Assembly (NCBI GenBank): GCA_043778225.1
Contig: JAYWGM010000028.1
Span: forward strand, 1 to 64,000
DNA length: 64,000 bases
Source of the DNA: Deinococcales bacterium
GTDB taxonomy: Bacteria > Deinococcota > Deinococci > Deinococcales > JAAFIG01
Direction: 5' to 3'
In this document: piece by piece, positions 30,001-42,000 of the stretch
Numbering within the stretch: position 1 is the first letter of the stretch
How the letters are laid out: every line of letters starts with the position of its first letter
Program-made: the position numbers

Positions 30001-33000
30001 GTTGCCCTCGCGTAGCCTTCGGCAGCATGACCGCCGCCTTGTTCATGGCGCACCAGAATATGTTGAATTGGGCTGTCGTAAAGCGCATCGTACACAGGCA
30101 TGATTGCCCCGCCGGGATGTCCAAAAATATGGCGGACACCATGCGCTTCGAGGGTTTTTAAGAGGGCTTCTGAACCAGTCATGATTTTCTCCTGTGCAAC
30201 TTTGAATAATCTAATACCAAACGTACTATTTGACCTTTTTACCTTTTTACCTTTTTACCTAAGCCCTTTGTCTCGAGTGAAAAAAACCCCCGCTTGTGGC
30301 GGGGGTCGCTTGGCTAAAATCTGGTACTACGCCGCGACCCCCCTAGTTAGGGTTACGACTACTACAATAACAAACACGGTTTTCATCTCGAGTAGAAGCG
30401 TATCAGTGGTATACCAAGCCTGTCAAGTGCCTGATGACCATGTTTTGTGTTTTACCTCGAGAGGTACTGGCTTGGCGTGGTAAAACGCAACATCAAATCT
30501 TTGGCTTTGTTAATGCCTATGCGTTGGCTGACCATCACAGGGACAGGGTTTTGACCTAGGGTTGCGAGGTACAGTTCGCTTTCAGAATCGGTTAAGTCCA
30601 ATCCGTAATGCTGCATTCCAATACCAAGTGCCGCGCAGAGTTTAGCCGGTCCATTGCAGAGTTTGGTTTGTAATTCTGGAATTCCACGGTTTTTGAGCAT
30701 GGTTGTGATTCCAGCAATGGGTTCTACAGCGCGGAACAACACCGAAGATGGCATAGACTCGAGTTCGATGCTGACATTAAAACAAAAGTGCTGTCGTGTT
30801 TGAAAAATGTAACTCATGCCAGCTTGTCCAAATAGAATCTGAGTGCGTTTGGTTTCTCCTGCCACCACATGAGCCGCAGCGTCCCCGATACCTAAGTAGG
30901 CTTCGGTTTCGACCACTCGAGCCAACAAAAAGGTTTGGTTGTCGCGTCGCACAATGTACTGCCCGAGTAGTTGCTGAGCAACTTCTACGGTATTTTGTTG
31001 AAAAAATGCTCGAGGTAAGGCTTTGGGTTCGTTCATGGGTGACAAAAGCCTAGCACTTGCTGGTTAATACGTTGCCTTGAATTAAGAAATTAAGTCCTAT
31101 AAACGGGTTTCTTAAAAATCTCTACACGTCAAAAAATTTGTGTAGAGATTTTGTAGAGGTCTGGTTTTGCATACTGTCTTTCAAGAGCAAGCAAGGCAGT
31201 CAACACCACAGGCTCGAGTAGTAAAAGTCGTTAAGGAGTGATTATGAAAAAAGCCCCGCGTCCGATGTAAGTCATAACCACACATTCTTCGTATTTTCGG
31301 TCTAAATCTTTTCAGTTGAGGCTTTTAGCACAACACCTAAGGAGTAAATCATGAAAAAGTTCTTTGCATTGGCACTCGTTTCGGCAAGTTTAATCGCAGG
31401 TATGGTTTCTTGCGGCAGCACACTACGAGTATTTATAGGTCAAGAAGAAAGTTCAACTGCTGCGGTTATACCTTGGTTAAGTTTAATCAAAGATTTTCTT
31501 GCAAAAACCAATCATGGAATGGCGTAAATCCCATCACCTCGAGCCTCGAGCTTAAAGGTCGGCAAAGGCTTGTTCGCAGGTCCTTGCTTAACTGCCCCAG
31601 TCTCGAGGTCAAACACACTTCCATGACACGGGCAACCTAGGTCTGTGCCAACTGGCGCACCAACCACACAACCAATGTGGGTACAAACTCGAGAACGGGC
31701 AATCAGATGCACTTCGCCAATGCTCAAACCATCTTTTTGTGGCTTAGCAACTCGAGCAATCACGGCGGGATTGCCACCAAGGTCAAGATTGAGACTGCTG
31801 CCGACCCTTAGAAAATCCTCGAGTGTTCCAACTTTCACGCCAGTTAGCGCAAGGCTTGCCCCTGGATTTTCGCGCACTGGCAGACATCCCGTTGCACCAA
31901 CAAGGCTTAGCGCAATCAGTGCATCCCGTCTCGAGATATTCATCGCTACAGTATGACAGATGTTCTGGGTTTTTTCTAAGTTTTTTGAAAACAAAGCCAA
32001 TCCTTCTCAATTTTGGTGACCAATTACACATTTACCTAAGAATTGTAATCTTGTGCTGTCAACAATGGCGTTTGGGACAATTCTCTGGTTGTTGCATCGC
32101 TTTGTAATTCGTATGCTCTATGCAATCTACCGAATCACATGGTTGAGGTCGTCTACCCAGCATTGCGTTGGGGTTTCTCGAGGAGGAAGGCTGGTGAGTA
32201 TGAGTATGGTCGAATCTGTGCGTGACCGTTTATTTCCTGATACTCCAGATGCGTCGGCAAAGCTATGGCTTACGTCGGCTGTGGTCTGGGGCGTGCTGGG
32301 TATGACATTTGGTGTCTTGATGGCAATTTTGTTTGTCTTTCCAGAATTTACCAAGGGTGTGCCGTGGTTATCGTTTAGTCGGATTCGTCCGTCTCACGTC
32401 AATACCGTGGTCATGTCTTGGGTTTCGATGGCAAGCATCGGCTCAATGTTTTATATGCTGCCGCGCTTACTCAAAACTGGCTTAGTCAGTGAACGCCTTG
32501 GTACAGCCGTTGGTTGGTCTTGGAACGCCTTTGCGCTGTGTATCCCGCTCACACTCCTGAATGGAATGTCCGAAGGGCGTGAATGGGCAGAGTTGGTTTG
32601 GTGGATGGATTGGTGGATGCTGATTAACCTCGGTTTGGTTGGGTATCTGACCTTTGCAACCGTCGCCAACCGCAAAGAACAGCAGCTCTATGTTTCAGTC
32701 TGGTATTGGATGGGTTCGATGGTCGGCATGACGATGGTTTGGATTGTCGGCAACCGCACTTTTGTACCACTTGATGGCTTAAACGATGCCATTGCCAATT
32801 GGTTTTATGCCCACGATGTACTGGGGCTTTGGATTACCACCATGGGCATTGGCATTATTTACTATTTATTGCCAAAACTGACGGCTGGCAAAAATGGCGA
32901 ACCGGGCAACCCAGTTTTTAGCCATAAACTGTCTCTAATCGGTTTTTGGGGAAATTTTGCTTTCTACACAGGTATTGGCGCACATCACATCATCCAAGCA

Positions 33001-39000: not shown

Positions 39001-42000
39001 GGCAATGGCATGATTTTACTGGCAATTCTGCATATGTTGCGTAATTTTTTTACTGACCGCTACCGAGGTTTCCGCGATATTCCTTGGGTTTCTGGGGTTA
39101 TTTTATTGTTCTTGACTGGTTTTATCGGCTTGACTGGCTACTTATTGGTCTGGGACCAACGCGCCTTGGTGATTACGGAAGCACTGGTGCAGATTTTACG
39201 CAGCTTTGACTTGGTGATTGCTGGCTTTGGTACTTGGTTGGCACAAGGCTTAATCGGCGGCGATGAACCCAATAACCTGACGCTGGCACGAATGTTATTT
39301 TTGCACGTCGGTCCTGCTGTGTTGGTCTTTTTCTTCTTGTGGGTGCATTACTTGCGCTTACACCGACCAAAAATCTGGCCTCCAGCTTTTGTGACCCTTT
39401 TGACGATTGGCGCAGTATTGTTGGCGGCTGGTCTGTTGCCACTCGAGAAAACTTTGCCCGCTACACAACCGATTGCGGCAGGACAAGCTGCCATTGTTTA
39501 CGATATTTTTTATCTGTTGCCCGTTTTGGCGCTCTCGAGCATCAGCGCTCCTTGGATTTTGGCGATTTTATTGGTGCTGTTTGGCGTGATGTTTATTTTG
39601 CCATGGCTACCCGCCAAAAAGCATCGCTATGTCAATGTGGCAACCGTCACCCCAGAAAACTGCACTGGCTGCCAACTGTGCGCCATTGACTGCCCATTTG
39701 ACGCAATCATCATGGTGCCTGGTGCAAACCCGAATCCACGCTATACAGAATTGGCTGTGGTCAACGATGATAAATGTGCTGAATGTGGTATCTGTGTTGG
39801 GGCTTGCCCATTCCATGCAATCAATCTCCCGCTTATGGACGAATACGCGATACGCGATAAGGTGGTGGCGTTACTTAAATGAATCTAGCATCCGATACAA
39901 CCCAACCCAATGTGCTTTCCCACAATGGCAAACCTAAGTTGCTTGGTTTTGTCTGTGAATGGAGCTTAGGACGAACTGACCACATCCATGAGGACGGCAC
40001 AGTCAAAGGCATGGAACACATCAAAACCCTGAAAATTCCGTGCAGTGGCTTTGTCAAAACCGAATGGGTGACAGTGGCTTTTGAAAACGGCGCTCAAGGT
40101 GTTTTTGTGCTTGGTTGCCCACTGGGCGATTGCCACTTTAACGAAGGTAATTTTATTATCAATGGGCGGCTCGAGCAACACACCGGACGGATGGTCAATC
40201 GTAAAATTATTGATGATTCTGGGCGGGTTGCCGAATTGTACTTGGGTGTGACTGGCAACAATGATTTCTTTGGTCAACTCGAGGACTTTACTAAGTACAT
40301 TGCTGCCATGCCACCGCTTGTCGTGGCAGCTAAAAAACCACGGGCGGCAGCTGCCAAAAAGGAGTAAGCACATGGAAGAGGCAACCCTAAACAATAAAAT
40401 CCTCGAGACCAGTGGTGAATCTGGTTTGGCGGTGCGTCCAGAACTTGAGCAAGTCGCAAGTACAGAAAAAGACTCCCGAGGTGTTGGTTACATTATGAAT
40501 TGGGTCAGCCTAATTTTGTTGTTTGTGATTTCGATGATTGCGATTGCTTGGTTTGGACCTTTTAGCGAAGTTTAATAACCTCTTCCAAAGGTCTGTAAAA
40601 AAGCTCACAAAAAACGTTAAACTATAGGGCGACTCGACAATGGGTCGCCCCAAACGTTATGGCACGCTCAATTGCACAACCAGAACCGCTCGAGCCATCC
40701 AACGCGATGGGCAGTTCGCACATGAGCCAAATTGAAGTGGTCTCGATTAGTTCGTATATTCGACTCGAGAAAGGGCGATGGAAAGGAAAACCGGTTTTGG
40801 TTAAACGCCTAAAAACCTCGGTACTGAATCATCACGAGATTCTTGAGCGCTTTGAACGCGAAGCTGACGTTCTCGAGCGCCTTGACCACCCCAATATCCC
40901 AGCCCTGATTCACCGCGAAAAAGGGTTGCTGATGCGCCAATATATCGAGGGCAACACGCTCTATCATTATCTGAGTCAAGCCACCATAGACTTGAAATCC
41001 ACGCTACATATTGCCAGAGGTTTACTCTCGGCGCTGGTGCATTCTCATGTCCGCGAGATTTTGCATCTCGATGTCAAACCTGCCAATATCCTGCTCAGTG
41101 CTGACCGACGGGTGCATTTGATTGATTTTGGCTGTGCCAAAGACCTGACTTTGGACAGCATTACCCACCAAGAAGCCCGACTTGGCACACCGCATTACAT
41201 GGCACCAGAACAATTTAAGGGCATCCGCGATGACCAACGCAGCGATATTTACAGTGTTGGGGCAGTGATGTACGAATGCCTGATGGGGCAGCCACCGCAC
41301 AAAGACCCTTTTGCTTGGTTATCTGGGCGTGGGGCATTGCCCAAAGCCATGCCCACCAATAAACCGCTTGCCACCATAATCCTCAAAGCCATTCAGCGTA
41401 ACCCAGACAACCGTTATGAAGAAGCGCTCGATATGCTCGAGGCGCTAGAAGCCATCGAGGACTGATGAAACGACTTGCACTTTGTGTCACTTTACTGGCT
41501 GGTATTGCCGTTTCGCAGCCCACCTCTCCCCTACCAAGCGGCGCAGTGCTTATTTCGAGCAAAAGTATATTGGGAATTCTCGAGCAAGATTTATGGTACA
41601 AAAGTGGCACTCTAAAAATTCGCGGCAGATTATTTTTGCCCAGTGGCGCATCTCGAGTGGCTGGCGTTGTCTATAACCACGGTGGAATTAGTGGCTTATC
41701 AAATCTAGCCGCTACACGCTGCCGCGAATTGGCTATGGCTGGCTTTGCAGTTTTTGCCTCGAGTTACCGTGGTGAAGATGGTTCGGATGGTCGGATTGAA
41801 GTTGCCAAGGGCGAAGTGGATGATGTCTTGGCGGGTTACAACTGGTTCAAAACCCATCCTCGAGTTGACCCAAAACGGATTGCCCAATTTGGCACAAGTC
41901 ATGGCGCATTAATTGGCTTACTTGGCAGTGCCAGAGACTCGAGTTTTCGCAGTTTGGTCTTTGCGTATGGTGTGGCGGACATTAGCGCTTGGTATGAGCA

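What a model noticed while it worked through the whole genome (the two positions that open the first line are those of the whole stretch)
31512..40575. A lone, divergent cbb3-type oxidase in one super-operon with Rieske/cyt b and a cytochrome b6-ferredoxin-MvhD module
The only haem-copper oxidase gene of this genome is a distant CcoN homologue (28% to FixN) that lies in a 9-kb same-strand cluster with CcoO/CcoP-like cytochromes c, a Rieske/cytochrome b pair, a cytochrome b6 domain fused to a 2x[4Fe-4S] ferredoxin, and an MvhD/FlpD protein; no A/B-type oxidase subunit II and no cytochrome bd gene is found. I read this as a family-wide replacement of the caa3/ba3 oxidases typical of Deinococcus and Thermus by a single high-affinity C-type oxidase hard-wired to its own quinol oxidase, with the b6-ferredoxin-MvhD unit as a side branch that passes quinol electrons to or from a low-potential carrier. 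New would be the respiratory design of this uncultured family [...]
Evidence so far: Genes g00889-g00901: Rieske (-), COX1 483 aa (TIGR00780 ccoN 248 bits, below its 583 cut-off), FixO + 2 cyt c 307 aa, 89- and 51-aa ORFs, cyt c 334 aa (ccoP-like), g00895 217 aa weak Rieske (E 1e-6), cyt b 436 aa, 100- and 122-aa ORFs, g00899 Cytochrome_B (36-224) + Fer4 x2 (317-376), best NCBIfam ExtP-type cytochrome b 144 bits (cut-off 290), g00900 FlpD/MvhD, 67-aa ORF. Six-frame Pfam searches: Cyt_bd_oxida_I 0 hits and COX2 0 hits in this genome (controls ring in 9 of 14 genomes, for COX2 including Thermus and Deinococcus); COX1 exactly one hit here and in each of four relatives from four genera, one of them closed. 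FlpD is in 15 of 18 family genomes but 16 of 364 of the order; FixO in 16 [...]
(Added by a program. Inside this text positions count along the whole contig: contig position 1 is position 1 of the stretch shown here. "Call 12" and the like, gene names such as g00115 and contig names such as C1 are that model's own, and its searches are not shown. The text may have been shortened before it was handed on; [...] marks where a part breaks off. The agent that wrote the report below was given it as the finding of a first reader that could run no searches.)

Follow-up and report, generated by a model that had tools for sequence, protein, structure and literature searches.

The report
Oxidase operon with two-cytochrome-b complex III
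This uncultured Deinococcus relative breathes oxygen through one operon joining a cbb3-type oxidase to an unusual complex III whose quinol-oxidising cytochrome b has lost its inner haem and is paired with a second cytochrome b wired by iron-sulfur clusters to the cell interior.

Summary
Twelve same-strand genes (32194-40575), with gaps of 46 bp or less, encode CcoN, a CcoO-cytochrome c fusion, a cytochrome c, a Rieske protein, cytochrome b, a cytochrome b-2x[4Fe-4S] fusion, MvhD and five small membrane ORFs.

It holds the genome's only haem-copper oxidase and its only cytochrome b genes. COX2 is absent from 0 of 19 family genomes, against 332 of 344 in the rest of the order.

- **The cassette is not special to this family.** The same gene order occurs in Melainabacteria-type contigs, where a "complex III/IV fusion" is in print. 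Its complex III half is in 81 of 94 CSP1-3 genomes.
- **The b-ferredoxin-MvhD unit does not look like a side branch.** In 94 of 94 homologues the Qo-bearing cytochrome b lacks both His ligands of the inner haem (bH). The ferredoxin-fused paralogue keeps all four His but has a degenerate Qo motif.

I infer one complex with two different cytochromes b, in which the second quinol electron leaves through cytoplasmic Fe-S clusters instead of a Q cycle. The acceptor is unknown.

This scan reached the same reading earlier on other genomes. The fused b-FeS-MvhD clade is in print (Kao and Hunte 2014).

I class it as a new variant of a known kind, with no biochemistry yet.

The parts
31512..32000 (-). 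Small Tat/lipoprotein-type Rieske protein, transcribed divergently. It is adjacent only in this genus and is probably not part of the cassette.
   Evidence: Pfam Rieske 40.5 bits. The homologue is next to ccoN only in G003, of the same genus. There are 19 of 19 family genomes with homologues, at other places, for example G018 at 4.33 Mb against the cassette at 4.57 Mb.
32194..33645 (+). CcoN, catalytic subunit I of a C-family (cbb3-type) haem-copper oxygen reductase.
   Evidence: COX1 227 bits. Best solved relatives are cbb3 CcoN chains, E 1.7e-60, against NorB at 8.6e-07. H115, H254, Y305, H311, H312, H399 and H401 (530-aa ORF numbering) align with the haem and CuB ligands and the helix-VII Tyr.
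33654..34577 (+). CcoO (FixO) fused to a second c-type cytochrome domain. It takes the place of a separate CcoP.
   Evidence: FixO 125.4 bits at residues 5-139 and Cytochrome_CBB3 at residues 181-264. PRK14486 'subunit II/cytochrome c' 164.6 bits, cut-off 447.
34578..34847 (+). 89-aa one-helix membrane protein, faintly like CcoS/FixS.
   Evidence: FixS E 0.035, 14.3 bits, below the cut-off. Conserved in 6 of 6 relatives. An 82-aa counterpart stands in L107.
34834..34989 (+). 51-aa one-helix membrane protein, a candidate small oxidase subunit.
   Evidence: Conserved in 6 of 6 relatives. One hydrophobic segment. A 56-aa counterpart stands in L107.
34989..35993 (+). 334-aa lipoprotein-like monohaem cytochrome c, the c subunit of the complex III module.
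   Evidence: Cytochrome_CBB3 41.2 bits at residues 238-311. Holds the same place in CSP1-3 (L048, L064) and in Melainabacteria-type loci.
36040..36693 (+). Divergent Rieske [2Fe-2S] protein with a twin-arginine leader.
   Evidence: The motifs CAHLGC and CPCH and the leader 'DRRSIIKG' are read from the translation. Pfam 16.5 bits, below the cut-off. Homologues stand upstream of cytochrome b in 44 of 44 CSP1-3 loci and 33 of 33 Melainabacteria-type loci with room.
36705..38015 (+). Long cytochrome b (436 aa). It keeps the Qo motif PILSDWYF and the two His of the outer haem bL, but lacks both His of the inner haem bH.
   Evidence: In the HMMER alignment to cytochrome b6 the second helix-B His is Arg. 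In 94 of 94 homologues the bL His are kept, while the bH positions are R (90) or K (4) on helix B and Y/F/L/M/W on helix D. R115 and E240 are invariant in A2.
38026..38328 (+). 100-aa two-helix membrane protein, a candidate small subunit.
   Evidence: Conserved in 6 of 6 relatives. Two small membrane ORFs hold the same place in CSP1-3 and in L107. Hydropathy.
38325..38693 (+). 122-aa membrane protein, a candidate small subunit. Its start overlaps the previous stop.
38695..39882 (+). Cytochrome b6-like protein with four His (two haems), six predicted helices and a C-terminal 2x[4Fe-4S] ferredoxin domain. Its Qo motif is degenerate (YDIF).
   Evidence: Cytochrome_B 100.9 bits plus the Fer4 families. 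H99, H113, H204, H218 and eight Cys are invariant in 25 sequences. AlphaFold2 model: pLDDT 71, helices A-F, then the ferredoxin domain. Foldseek matches cytochrome b of bc1. Present in 19 of 19 family genomes.
39879..40367 (+). MvhD/FlpD-like protein with four invariant Cys, a candidate [2Fe-2S] carrier. It has no hydrophobic segment and its start overlaps the stop of the previous gene by 4 bases.
   Evidence: FlpD 73 bits. C26, C55, C80 and C85 are invariant in 25 sequences. It stands downstream of the b-ferredoxin gene in 54 of 54 CSP1-3 loci with room. It is fused to that gene in 23 of 38 long homologues.
40372..40575 (+). 67-aa protein with one C-terminal helix. It was found in 5 of the 6 relatives examined, all of this family; the sixth locus ends inside FlpD. 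No homologue was seen in the other two lineages.
   Evidence: tblastn hits in 5 of the 6 relatives examined; L023 ends inside FlpD. Not seen downstream of FlpD in L107.

Best explanation
The cluster is one respiratory cassette with two modules.

**Module 1** is a two-subunit C-family oxygen reductase: CcoN, plus CcoO fused to an extra cytochrome c domain.

**Module 2** is a variant Rieske/cytochrome b complex built on two different cytochromes b.
- The 436-aa cytochrome b, together with the Rieske protein, forms the quinol-oxidising Qo site. It holds only the outer haem bL.
- Its paralogue holds bL and bH, and carries two [4Fe-4S] clusters on the cytoplasmic face.
- MvhD adds a [2Fe-2S] cluster.

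**Proposed path.** Quinol gives one electron to Rieske, then cytochrome c, CcoO and CcoN, and so to O2. The other electron goes from bL of the first cytochrome b to bL of the second, as between the two halves of a bc1 dimer. From there it passes to bH, the Fe-S clusters and MvhD, and then to an unidentified cytoplasmic acceptor. There is no Qi site and no classical Q cycle in the first cytochrome b.

**Shown here:** gene content, residue patterns, co-occurrence, natural fusions, and the even helix count of the fusion protein.

**Inferred:** the heterodimer, the direction of electron flow, the placing of the ferredoxin domain in the cytoplasm (from canonical cytochrome b topology), oxygen as substrate, and the acceptor.

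In this family the cassette is the only complex III and the only haem-copper oxidase.
For: - **Oxidase class.** All six His and the helix-VII Tyr align with solved cbb3 CcoN. E is 1.7e-60, against 8.6e-07 for NorB. FixO is adjacent.
- **Tight operon.** Gaps from CcoN to the 67-aa ORF are 46 bp or less, with three start/stop overlaps (coordinates). Promoter-like and terminator-like sites are not in excess: 15 against 13.3 +/- 4.0, and 13 against 16.5 +/- 4.1.
- **Complementary loss.** In 94 of 94 homologues of the 436-aa cytochrome b (7 Deinococcales, 46 CSP1-3, 41 Melainabacteria-type) the bL His are kept and no His stands at either bH position. The Qo motif PILSDWYF stands in 90 and PVLSDWYF in 4. 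Of 100 rows picked as the ferredoxin-fused paralogue, 93 keep all four His; the other 7 were mis-picked copies of the first cytochrome b. Their motif is degenerate.
- **Obligate company.** 44 of 44 CSP1-3 loci with room have Rieske plus the one-haem b upstream of the fusion, and 54 of 54 have FlpD downstream. Of 33 Melainabacteria-type loci with room, 33 have all the genes through the fusion and 32 have FlpD.
- **Age of the pair.** Both paralogue clades hold the same three monophyletic groups, so the pair predates its spread.
- **Natural fusions.** 23 of 38 long homologues carry Cytochrome_B + Fer4 + FlpD in one chain. Kao and Hunte 2014 (PMC4122944, passages) report such fusions.
- **Topology.** Six helices precede the ferredoxin domain. 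The fold matches helices A-F of bc1 cytochrome b. FlpD has no hydrophobic segment.
- **Sole system.** The own genome has 2 Cytochrome_B hits, 1 FlpD and 0 NrfD. In the family the only cytochrome b genes are the cassette pair.
Against: - No direct evidence that the two cytochromes b touch.
- The ferredoxin domain of the model has low confidence (pLDDT 35-60).
- Fused b-FeS-MvhD proteins exist in clusters without a Rieske protein (PMC4122944). The second cytochrome b can therefore work on its own elsewhere, and may keep a quinol site of its own (xDWF in Melainabacteria-type copies).
- No conserved gene for an acceptor lies in the cassette in any of the three lineages.
- [4Fe-4S] clusters are usually far more negative than haem bH, which would make forward flow uphill unless their potentials are unusual.
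- Genomes are MAGs (own genome 89% complete), so absences are not proven. G009 has a second COX1 and a bd oxidase; G008 has a bd oxidase.
- No expression data.
Confidence: 0.55

Rival explanations
1. There are two separate enzymes that are merely co-expressed. The first is a simplified Rieske/one-haem cytochrome b quinol:cytochrome c reductase that passes both quinol electrons to Rieske and has no Q cycle. The second is an independent homodimeric b-ferredoxin-MvhD redox loop of the NarI type, linking the quinone pool to a cytoplasmic partner.
For: Fused b-FeS-MvhD proteins occur without any Rieske gene nearby (PMC4122944 passages). The fused family is large. Melainabacteria-type copies keep an xDWF motif.
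Against: A Qo site whose only low-potential haem is a dead end would be inhibited or leak electrons. The one-haem cytochrome b was never seen without the fusion in 44 of 44 and 33 of 33 loci with room. Loss of the bH ligands in one paralogue and loss of PEWY-type residues in the other are complementary across three lineages.
Confidence: 0.25
2. The Fe-S/MvhD arm is an input, not an exit. A cytoplasmic reductant feeds electrons through MvhD, the [4Fe-4S] clusters and bH into the membrane, as ferredoxin is thought to feed the n side of cytochrome b6f in cyclic flow. In this way it reduces quinone, or re-reduces the Qo semiquinone.
For: The N-terminal domain is most like cytochrome b6 (E 4.7e-33). 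The low potentials typical of [4Fe-4S] clusters favour flow towards the haems (general knowledge, recalled).
Against: The Cys that binds haem cn in b6 is Tyr here ('fyclgg' against 'fyylgg' in the alignment). It does not explain where the second electron of the one-haem cytochrome b goes. No donor gene is conserved nearby.
Confidence: 0.15
3. The haem-copper enzyme is not an oxygen reductase but an NO reductase or another C-related enzyme, so the cassette serves denitrification or detoxification.
For: The score lies far below the ccoN equivalog cut-off, 247 against 583 bits. Earlier notes of this scan place fused b-FeS-MvhD proteins beside eNOR genes (not tested here).
Against: All CuB His and the C-family Tyr are kept, and cbb3 chains score about 50 orders of magnitude better than NorB. 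It is the only haem-copper enzyme of a family that otherwise lacks COX2 and mostly lacks bd.
Confidence: 0.04

Closest known systems
Melainabacterial 'complex III/IV' gene cluster (Soo et al. 2014 and 2017 as cited; Matheus Carnevali et al. 2019, PMC6349859)
   Same: Same genes in the same order: ccoN, ccoO-c, two small ORFs, cytochrome c, Rieske, cytochrome b, two small ORFs, b-ferredoxin, FlpD (L107; 33 of 33 loci with room). Proteins are 26-49% identical. The nearest CcoN relatives outside the family bear Melainabacteria, Obscuribacterales or Armatimonadetes labels.
   Different: In the passages I read, the paper calls the genes 'petB, petB, petC' of a b6f complex. It mentions neither the ferredoxin domain, nor MvhD, nor the missing haem ligands. 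Here the cassette sits in a Deinococcales family that has lost A/B-type oxidases. Soo et al. 2017 is not held, so it may say more.
'PDWF-FeS clade' of cytochrome b (Kao and Hunte 2014, PMC4122944)
   Same: Cytochrome b joined to a 4Fe-4S domain and an MvhD-type domain. The Qo-motif position reads xD(W/V/I)F. Homologues at 31-40% identity carry all three domains in one chain.
   Different: Here MvhD is a separate, translationally coupled gene. A Rieske protein and a one-haem cytochrome b always accompany it. That paper states that no Rieske is in those clusters, and it discarded every sequence lacking one of the four His, so the one-haem partner could not appear.
cbb3-type cytochrome c oxidase of Pseudomonas stutzeri (PDB 3mk7, 5djq) and the bc1-cbb3 supercomplexes (6xkw, 8smr)
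   Same: CcoN ligands and the helix-VII Tyr are kept, with a CcoO partner. The oxidase works with a Rieske/cytochrome b complex.
   Different: There is no separate CcoP, because a c domain is fused to CcoO. The protein scores 247 bits against the 583-bit equivalog cut-off. Its complex III partner is encoded in the same operon and is non-canonical.
Cytochrome b6f and bc1 complexes
   Same: Rieske protein with a cluster-binding motif, a Qo motif of the PDWY type, a c-type cytochrome, and the b6-like fold.
   Different: The textbook enzymes are homodimers with two haems in each cytochrome b and a Qi site. Here the Qo-bearing subunit has ligands for one haem only, and the second cytochrome b ends in Fe-S clusters. 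The Cys for haem cn is absent from both.
QmoABC, HdrDE and NarGHI-type redox loops (recalled, no call)
   Same: A membrane di-haem cytochrome b hands quinol electrons to cytoplasmic Fe-S proteins. QmoB carries an MvhD domain.
   Different: Those cytochromes b belong to the NarI/HdrE family, not to the b/b6 family. They have no Rieske partner and no bifurcating Qo site.

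Membership tests
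C-family (cbb3-type) haem-copper oxygen reductase | Six His ligands for the low-spin haem b, the high-spin haem b3 and CuB. | tested here: met
   H115, H254, H311, H312, H399 and H401 align with the His of solved CcoN chains 9g6b and 8smr. Which His binds which cofactor is recalled from the P. stutzeri structure.
C-family (cbb3-type) haem-copper oxygen reductase | Active-site Tyr on helix VII rather than helix VI. | tested here: met
   Y305 aligns with the Tyr six residues before the HH pair in 9g6b and 8smr. The His-Tyr cross-link itself cannot be tested.
C-family (cbb3-type) haem-copper oxygen reductase | Monohaem CcoO (FixO) subunit encoded next to CcoN. | tested here: met
   FixO 125.4 bits, 8 bp after ccoN.
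C-family (cbb3-type) haem-copper oxygen reductase | Separate dihaem CcoP subunit. | tested here: not met
   No ccoP gene. TIGR00782 gives only 35.3 and 29.7 bits, cut-off 179.95, on the c domain of CcoO and on the 334-aa cytochrome c. A fused c domain may replace it. CcoP is not universal in the family (recalled).
C-family (cbb3-type) haem-copper oxygen reductase | Score over the NCBIfam ccoN equivalog cut-off. | tested here: not met
   247.2 bits against 583.15. This is a divergent subfamily, shared with Melainabacteria-type sequences at 42-47% identity.
C-family (cbb3-type) haem-copper oxygen reductase | Reduces O2 with high affinity. | not testable with these tools
   Inference from proteobacterial enzymes only.
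Rieske/cytochrome b complex (bc1, b6f) | Rieske protein with CxHxGC and CxCH boxes. | tested here: met
   CAHLGC and CPCH in the 217-aa protein. Pfam is below the cut-off at 16.5 against 20.3 bits.
Rieske/cytochrome b complex (bc1, b6f) | Cytochrome b with four His binding haems bL and bH. | tested here: not met
   The Qo-bearing 436-aa subunit has only the two bL His, in 94 of 94 homologues. The paralogue has four.
Rieske/cytochrome b complex (bc1, b6f) | Qo motif (PEWY or PDWY) in the ef loop. | tested here: met
   PILSDWYF in 90 of 94 homologues and PVLSDWYF in 4. The D-W-Y of the PDWY type is kept, with Ser in place of the first Pro.
Rieske/cytochrome b complex (bc1, b6f) | Homodimer running a Q cycle with a Qi site. 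| not testable with these tools
   The missing bH ligands argue against it. Assembly state is unknown.
PDWF-FeS clade of cytochrome b (Kao and Hunte 2014) | Cytochrome b fused to a 4Fe-4S domain. | tested here: met
   Cytochrome_B at residues 59-247 and Fer4 at 345-399 in one ORF.
PDWF-FeS clade of cytochrome b (Kao and Hunte 2014) | MvhD domain in the same chain, and no Rieske gene in the cluster. | tested here: not met
   MvhD is a separate overlapping gene and a Rieske gene is always present. This is a split, Rieske-associated branch.
MvhD/FlpD | Pfam FlpD over its cut-off, and four conserved Cys for a [2Fe-2S] cluster. | tested here: met
   73 bits against 22.3. C26, C55, C80 and C85 are invariant in 25 sequences. 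The cluster type is recalled from methanogen MvhD.
MvhD/FlpD | Partnered with a hydrogenase or an HdrA flavoprotein. | tested here: not met
   No such gene in the cassette or its flanks in the window, L048, L064, L098 or L107. The rest of the genome was not searched for HdrA.

The most novel reading that the evidence does not exclude
The cassette is a respiration-driven, quinone-based electron-bifurcating machine. Oxygen reduction by the dedicated cbb3 oxidase pulls one quinol electron through Rieske. The energised second electron cannot enter a Q cycle, because the Qo subunit has no bH. It is therefore forced across to the partner cytochrome b and out through three Fe-S clusters, where it reduces a low-potential cytoplasmic carrier (ferredoxin, NAD(P)+ or a disulfide). 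Aerobic bacteria of three phyla would then make strong reductant directly from quinol and oxygen. This role has been proposed, but never shown, for the odd Rieske/cytochrome b complexes of anammox bacteria (recalled).
Probability: 0.2. Interest if true: 0.9.

Novelty: new variant of a known kind. Interest (0 to 1): 0.62.

Why it matters
Textbook complex III is a symmetric dimer that recycles half of its electrons through a Q cycle. Here the haem-ligand pattern implies an asymmetric complex with an electrical port to the cytoplasm. The pattern holds in 94 of 94 homologues from three distant lineages.

If the reading is right, the H+/e- yield of respiration changes in these organisms. CSP1-3 soil bacteria (81 of 94 genomes), aerobic Melainabacteria and this stream-dwelling Deinococcales family would all be affected. 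It would also offer a natural test case for whether Qo-site bifurcation can drive cytoplasmic reductions.

For Deinococcota, it shows a whole family that has exchanged the caa3/ba3 oxidases and the usual bc complex of Thermus and Deinococcus for one imported cassette.

Tried and rejected
- **Complex prediction** with the one-haem cytochrome b, FlpD and the b-ferredoxin as partner: verdict 'no answer'. The score was 0.47, while a control with chain 1 replaced by an unrelated protein scored 0.51. I draw nothing from it about binding.
- **Structure prediction.** The job for the b-ferredoxin failed twice before it ran. The job for the 436-aa cytochrome b did not complete twice and I dropped it. 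A hydropathy scan stands in for it.
- **The look-up of sequencing runs**: no RNA holder is listed, and the two DNA holders may be the source sample. Nothing was laid, so there is nothing on expression.
- **NO-reductase reading:** rejected on the active-site alignment.
- **The minus-strand Rieske gene as part of the cluster:** rejected, because it is adjacent only within the genus.
- **A cbb3 shared across the order:** FixO hits in 33 genomes of other families. The four sampled loci showed different enzymes. Three had a CcoN-like hit at 31-37% identity; the fourth (L190) gave only a CcoO-type hit. None had a Rieske, cytochrome b or FlpD neighbour.
- **A link to a complex I without NuoEFG, as in Melainabacteria:** the own genome has NuoF next to NuoD. 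I did not pursue this.
- **Paper searches.**
  - No hit: 'Rieske cytb' + 4Fe-4S + fused; Melainabacteria + cbb3 + 'cytochrome b'.
  - Hits that did not bear on the system, judged from listings only: Rieske + 'cytochrome b' + MvhD; the six-term search; Obscuribacter/cbb3/Rieske.
  - FlpD + 'cytochrome b' gave only a domain table naming one b6 + FeS + FlpD protein (PMC8756737).
  - The two CSP1-3 papers (PMC11604079, PMC11962464) have no passage on Rieske, complex III or cbb3. Their one 'cytochrome b' hit (PMC11962464) is 'cytochrome bd'.

Full report
**What is there**

The stretch 32194-40575 holds twelve genes on the plus strand:
- CcoN: COX1 227 bits.
- CcoO fused to a c-type cytochrome domain: FixO 125 bits.
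- An 89-aa ORF faintly like CcoS/FixS (E 0.035, below the cut-off), and a 51-aa ORF.
- A 334-aa lipoprotein-like cytochrome c.
- A divergent Rieske protein: the motifs CAHLGC and CPCH, and a twin-arginine leader.
- A 436-aa cytochrome b.
- 100-aa and 122-aa membrane ORFs.
- A 395-aa cytochrome b6-like protein ending in two complete CxxCxxCxxxCP motifs.
- An MvhD/FlpD protein: 73 bits.
- A 67-aa ORF.

Gaps are 46 bp or less and three gene pairs overlap. Promoter-like and terminator-like matches are no more frequent than in shuffles. A single operon is therefore plausible but not shown.

In the window's own genome (89% complete):
- COX1 has one hit, COX2 none and cytochrome bd none.
- The only two Cytochrome_B hits and the only FlpD hit lie in this cluster.
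- There is no NrfD hit, so there is no sign of an alternative complex III.

In the family (19 genomes, including the window's):

| Search | Result |
|---|---|
| COX2 | 0 of 19 |
| bd | 2 of 19 (G008, G009) |
| COX1 | 19 of 19, one each except G009 |
| b-ferredoxin gene | 19 of 19 |
| Cytochrome b outside the cassette pair | none, apart from a 30-bit hit in G009 |

G009 has 6% contamination. Its second COX1 lies on a contig with a 316-bit FixO hit.

In the other four families of the order, COX2 is in 332 of 344 genomes: 123 of 125, 17 of 23, 68 of 68 and 124 of 128. The tally includes the unpublished genome G324; without it the figure is 331 of 343.

FixO occurs in 33 genomes of other families. 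Four loci were sampled. Three carry a CcoN-like hit at 31-37% identity; the fourth (L190) gave only a CcoO-type hit. None has the complex III genes beside it.

The family-wide exchange of oxidases is therefore supported, within the limits of MAG completeness.

**The oxidase**

Against solved structures the best matches are cbb3 CcoN chains (E 1.7e-60 to 1.7e-50). NorB reaches only 8.6e-07. In those alignments H115, H254, H311, H312, H399, H401 and Y305 (530-aa ORF numbering) stand at the ligand and helix-VII Tyr positions.

There is no separate CcoP. The protein scores below the ccoN equivalog cut-off, 247 against 583 bits.

I file it as a divergent C-family oxygen reductase. Substrate and affinity are inferred.

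**The cassette is not peculiar to this family**

Gene order from ccoN to the 67-aa ORF is kept in six relatives from four genera, one of them a closed genome.

*Melainabacteria-type contigs.* Outside the family, the nearest CcoN proteins (42-47% identity) carry Melainabacteria, Obscuribacterales, Cyanobacteria-bacterium and Armatimonadetes labels. I scanned metagenome contigs with an alignment of these proteins and obtained 80 loci.
- Of the 33 loci with more than 7.4 kb downstream, all 33 have CcoO-c, cytochrome c, Rieske, cytochrome b and the b-ferredoxin in the window's order. 32 also have FlpD.
- One shorter locus, L166, shows CcoN alone.
- L107 even has the four small ORFs in the same places.

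*CSP1-3 (Sysuimicrobiota).* The b-ferredoxin protein has relatives at 41-46% identity in genomes of this candidate phylum, many of them labelled Armatimonadota or Bacillota.
- The block there is cytochrome c, Rieske, cytochrome b, two small ORFs, b-ferredoxin, FlpD.
- 44 of 44 loci with room have Rieske and cytochrome b upstream. 54 of 54 have FlpD downstream.
- A very divergent C-type oxidase follows FlpD in 8 of 60 loci.
- Across 94 genomes of that phylum, 81 have a full-length match at E of 1e-100 or better. Without the unpublished genomes G380 and G388 the figure is 79 of 92.

**The key residue pattern**

In the HMMER alignment to cytochrome b6, the second helix-B His of the 436-aa cytochrome b is Arg.

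A joint alignment of 94 homologues (7 Deinococcales, 46 CSP1-3, 41 Melainabacteria-type) gives the following:

| Position | Residues found |
|---|---|
| Two outer-haem (bL) His | His in 94 of 94 |
| Inner-haem (bH) position, helix B | Arg 90, Lys 4 |
| Inner-haem (bH) position, helix D | Tyr, Phe, Leu, Met or Trp; never His |
| Qo motif | PILSDWYF 90, PVLSDWYF 4 |

R115 and E240 are invariant in the 24-sequence alignment.

The ferredoxin-fused paralogue shows the reverse pattern. All four His are invariant. In one search, 93 of 100 rows have them, and the other 7 were mis-picked copies of the first cytochrome b. Its Qo position reads YDIF, LDVF or IDWF. The Cys that binds haem cn in b6 is Tyr or Met in the two proteins.

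A tree of both paralogues separates them with full support. Each half holds the same three monophyletic groups, so the pair is older than its spread (quick IQ-TREE; 12 of each large group were sampled at random).

**Topology and fusions**

- AlphaFold2 on the 25-sequence alignment gives six transmembrane helices (A-F) and then the ferredoxin domain. Mean pLDDT is 71, and the ferredoxin part is poorly resolved.
- Foldseek matches helices A-F of bc1 cytochrome b, for example 1pp9_P at rmsd 4.6 over 291 columns.
- With the canonical N-terminus-inside topology, an even helix count puts the Fe-S domain in the cytoplasm. FlpD has no hydrophobic segment and would sit there too.
- Among 38 longer homologues, 23 carry Cytochrome_B, Fer4 and FlpD in one chain. 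Of five that I scanned, three did. This argues that the b-ferredoxin and MvhD act as one unit.

**Mechanism proposed**

A Qo site whose cytochrome b holds only haem bL has no way to pass the second electron across the membrane. The always-present paralogue offers bL, bH and a cytoplasmic Fe-S chain, but it has lost the PEWY-type residues.

The simplest reading is a heterodimer modelled on the bc1 dimer, in which the two bL haems are close. The path would be bL, then bL', bH', two [4Fe-4S] clusters and the MvhD [2Fe-2S] cluster.

Everything beyond the residue patterns and co-occurrence is inference. The acceptor is unknown. No candidate gene is conserved in the cassette in all three lineages.

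The rivals are two independent enzymes, an input rather than an exit arm, and a non-oxygen substrate. They are listed with their odds in the rival explanations.

**What is in print**

- Matheus Carnevali et al. 2019 (PMC6349859; passages of the main text and of Supplementary Note 6) report type C oxidase genes next to 'petB, petB, petC' in Melainabacteria. They call this a complex III/IV combination and cite Soo et al. for Obscuribacter.
- Kao and Hunte 2014 (PMC4122944, passages) name a 'PDWF-FeS clade': cytochromes b fused to a 4Fe-4S domain and an MvhD subunit, with no Rieske gene in the cluster. They state that sequences lacking any of the four His were removed.

I found no passage describing the one-haem partner or the asymmetric complex, in any of the ten searches. 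Soo et al. 2017 is not held. Subscription papers, and supplements I did not open, may cover it.

**Earlier notes of this scan**

After I had reached this reading, a look-up showed that the scan had noted the same design on other genomes: e1-4265083, e1-1119581 and e1-4430290. It had also noted fused forms beside eNOR genes. Those notes gave me the lead to Kao and Hunte. They are not independent evidence.

**Verdict**

The family-wide loss of A/B-type oxidases is supported. The claimed novelty of the 'design of this family' falls, because the cassette is shared with Melainabacteria and its complex III half with CSP1-3.

What remains of interest is the uncharacterised two-cytochrome-b complex III itself. 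This window adds a third phylum, and a case in which that complex is the only route from quinol to oxygen.

Noticed in passing
window 40659-41465: A Ser/Thr protein kinase gene (Pkinase, 117 bits) lies 83 bp after the cassette. Its homologue follows the cassette in 4 of the 6 relatives checked (G018, G011, G003, G015). It could regulate the cassette, or it could simply be conserved synteny.
   Followed up: partly
G009:C87:3918-6429 (L002) and G009:C55:20540-21838: One family genome, with 6% contamination, has a second COX1 (321 bits) together with a 316-bit FixO on a short contig, and also a cytochrome bd gene. These are either contaminant contigs or a real second oxidase set.
   Followed up: no
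L187, L188 (G304, G254) and L189 (G134): Other families of the order carry unrelated CcoN/CcoO pairs at 31-37% identity, without complex III genes beside them. FixO is found in 27 of 128 genomes of family f5.
   Followed up: partly
P0241, P0256 (about 700 aa): The fused cytochrome b-Fer4-FlpD proteins carry a further 190 residues after FlpD: one hydrophobic helix and a domain with no Pfam match. This could be the missing partner module.
   Followed up: no
L098:10625-13200 and the like (L099-L104, L106): In 8 CSP1-3 loci a very divergent C-type oxidase follows FlpD. Its COX1 score is 69 bits, its identity to the window's CcoN is 22-24%, and its best solved relative is cbb3 CcoN at E 4e-21. It has a short FixO-like partner. 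The gene order is the reverse of the window's.
   Followed up: partly
G363:C4:47996-48523: The CSP1-3 genome that holds L048 has a third cytochrome b, which looks canonical (172 bits), 18 kb from the pair. In that phylum the variant complex can therefore coexist with an ordinary one.
   Followed up: no
G000:C86:64945-65685: The window's genome has a second NuoD-like gene, away from the NuoD-NuoF cluster on C79. It may belong to a second complex-I-like or hydrogenase-like module.
   Followed up: no
L048:10635-11705, L064:10928-12531, L075:11299-12267: In CSP1-3 loci the cassette is followed by a polyprenyl synthetase gene, and in L064 by a cupredoxin gene as well. This hints at a link with quinone synthesis and a copper electron carrier.
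   Followed up: no
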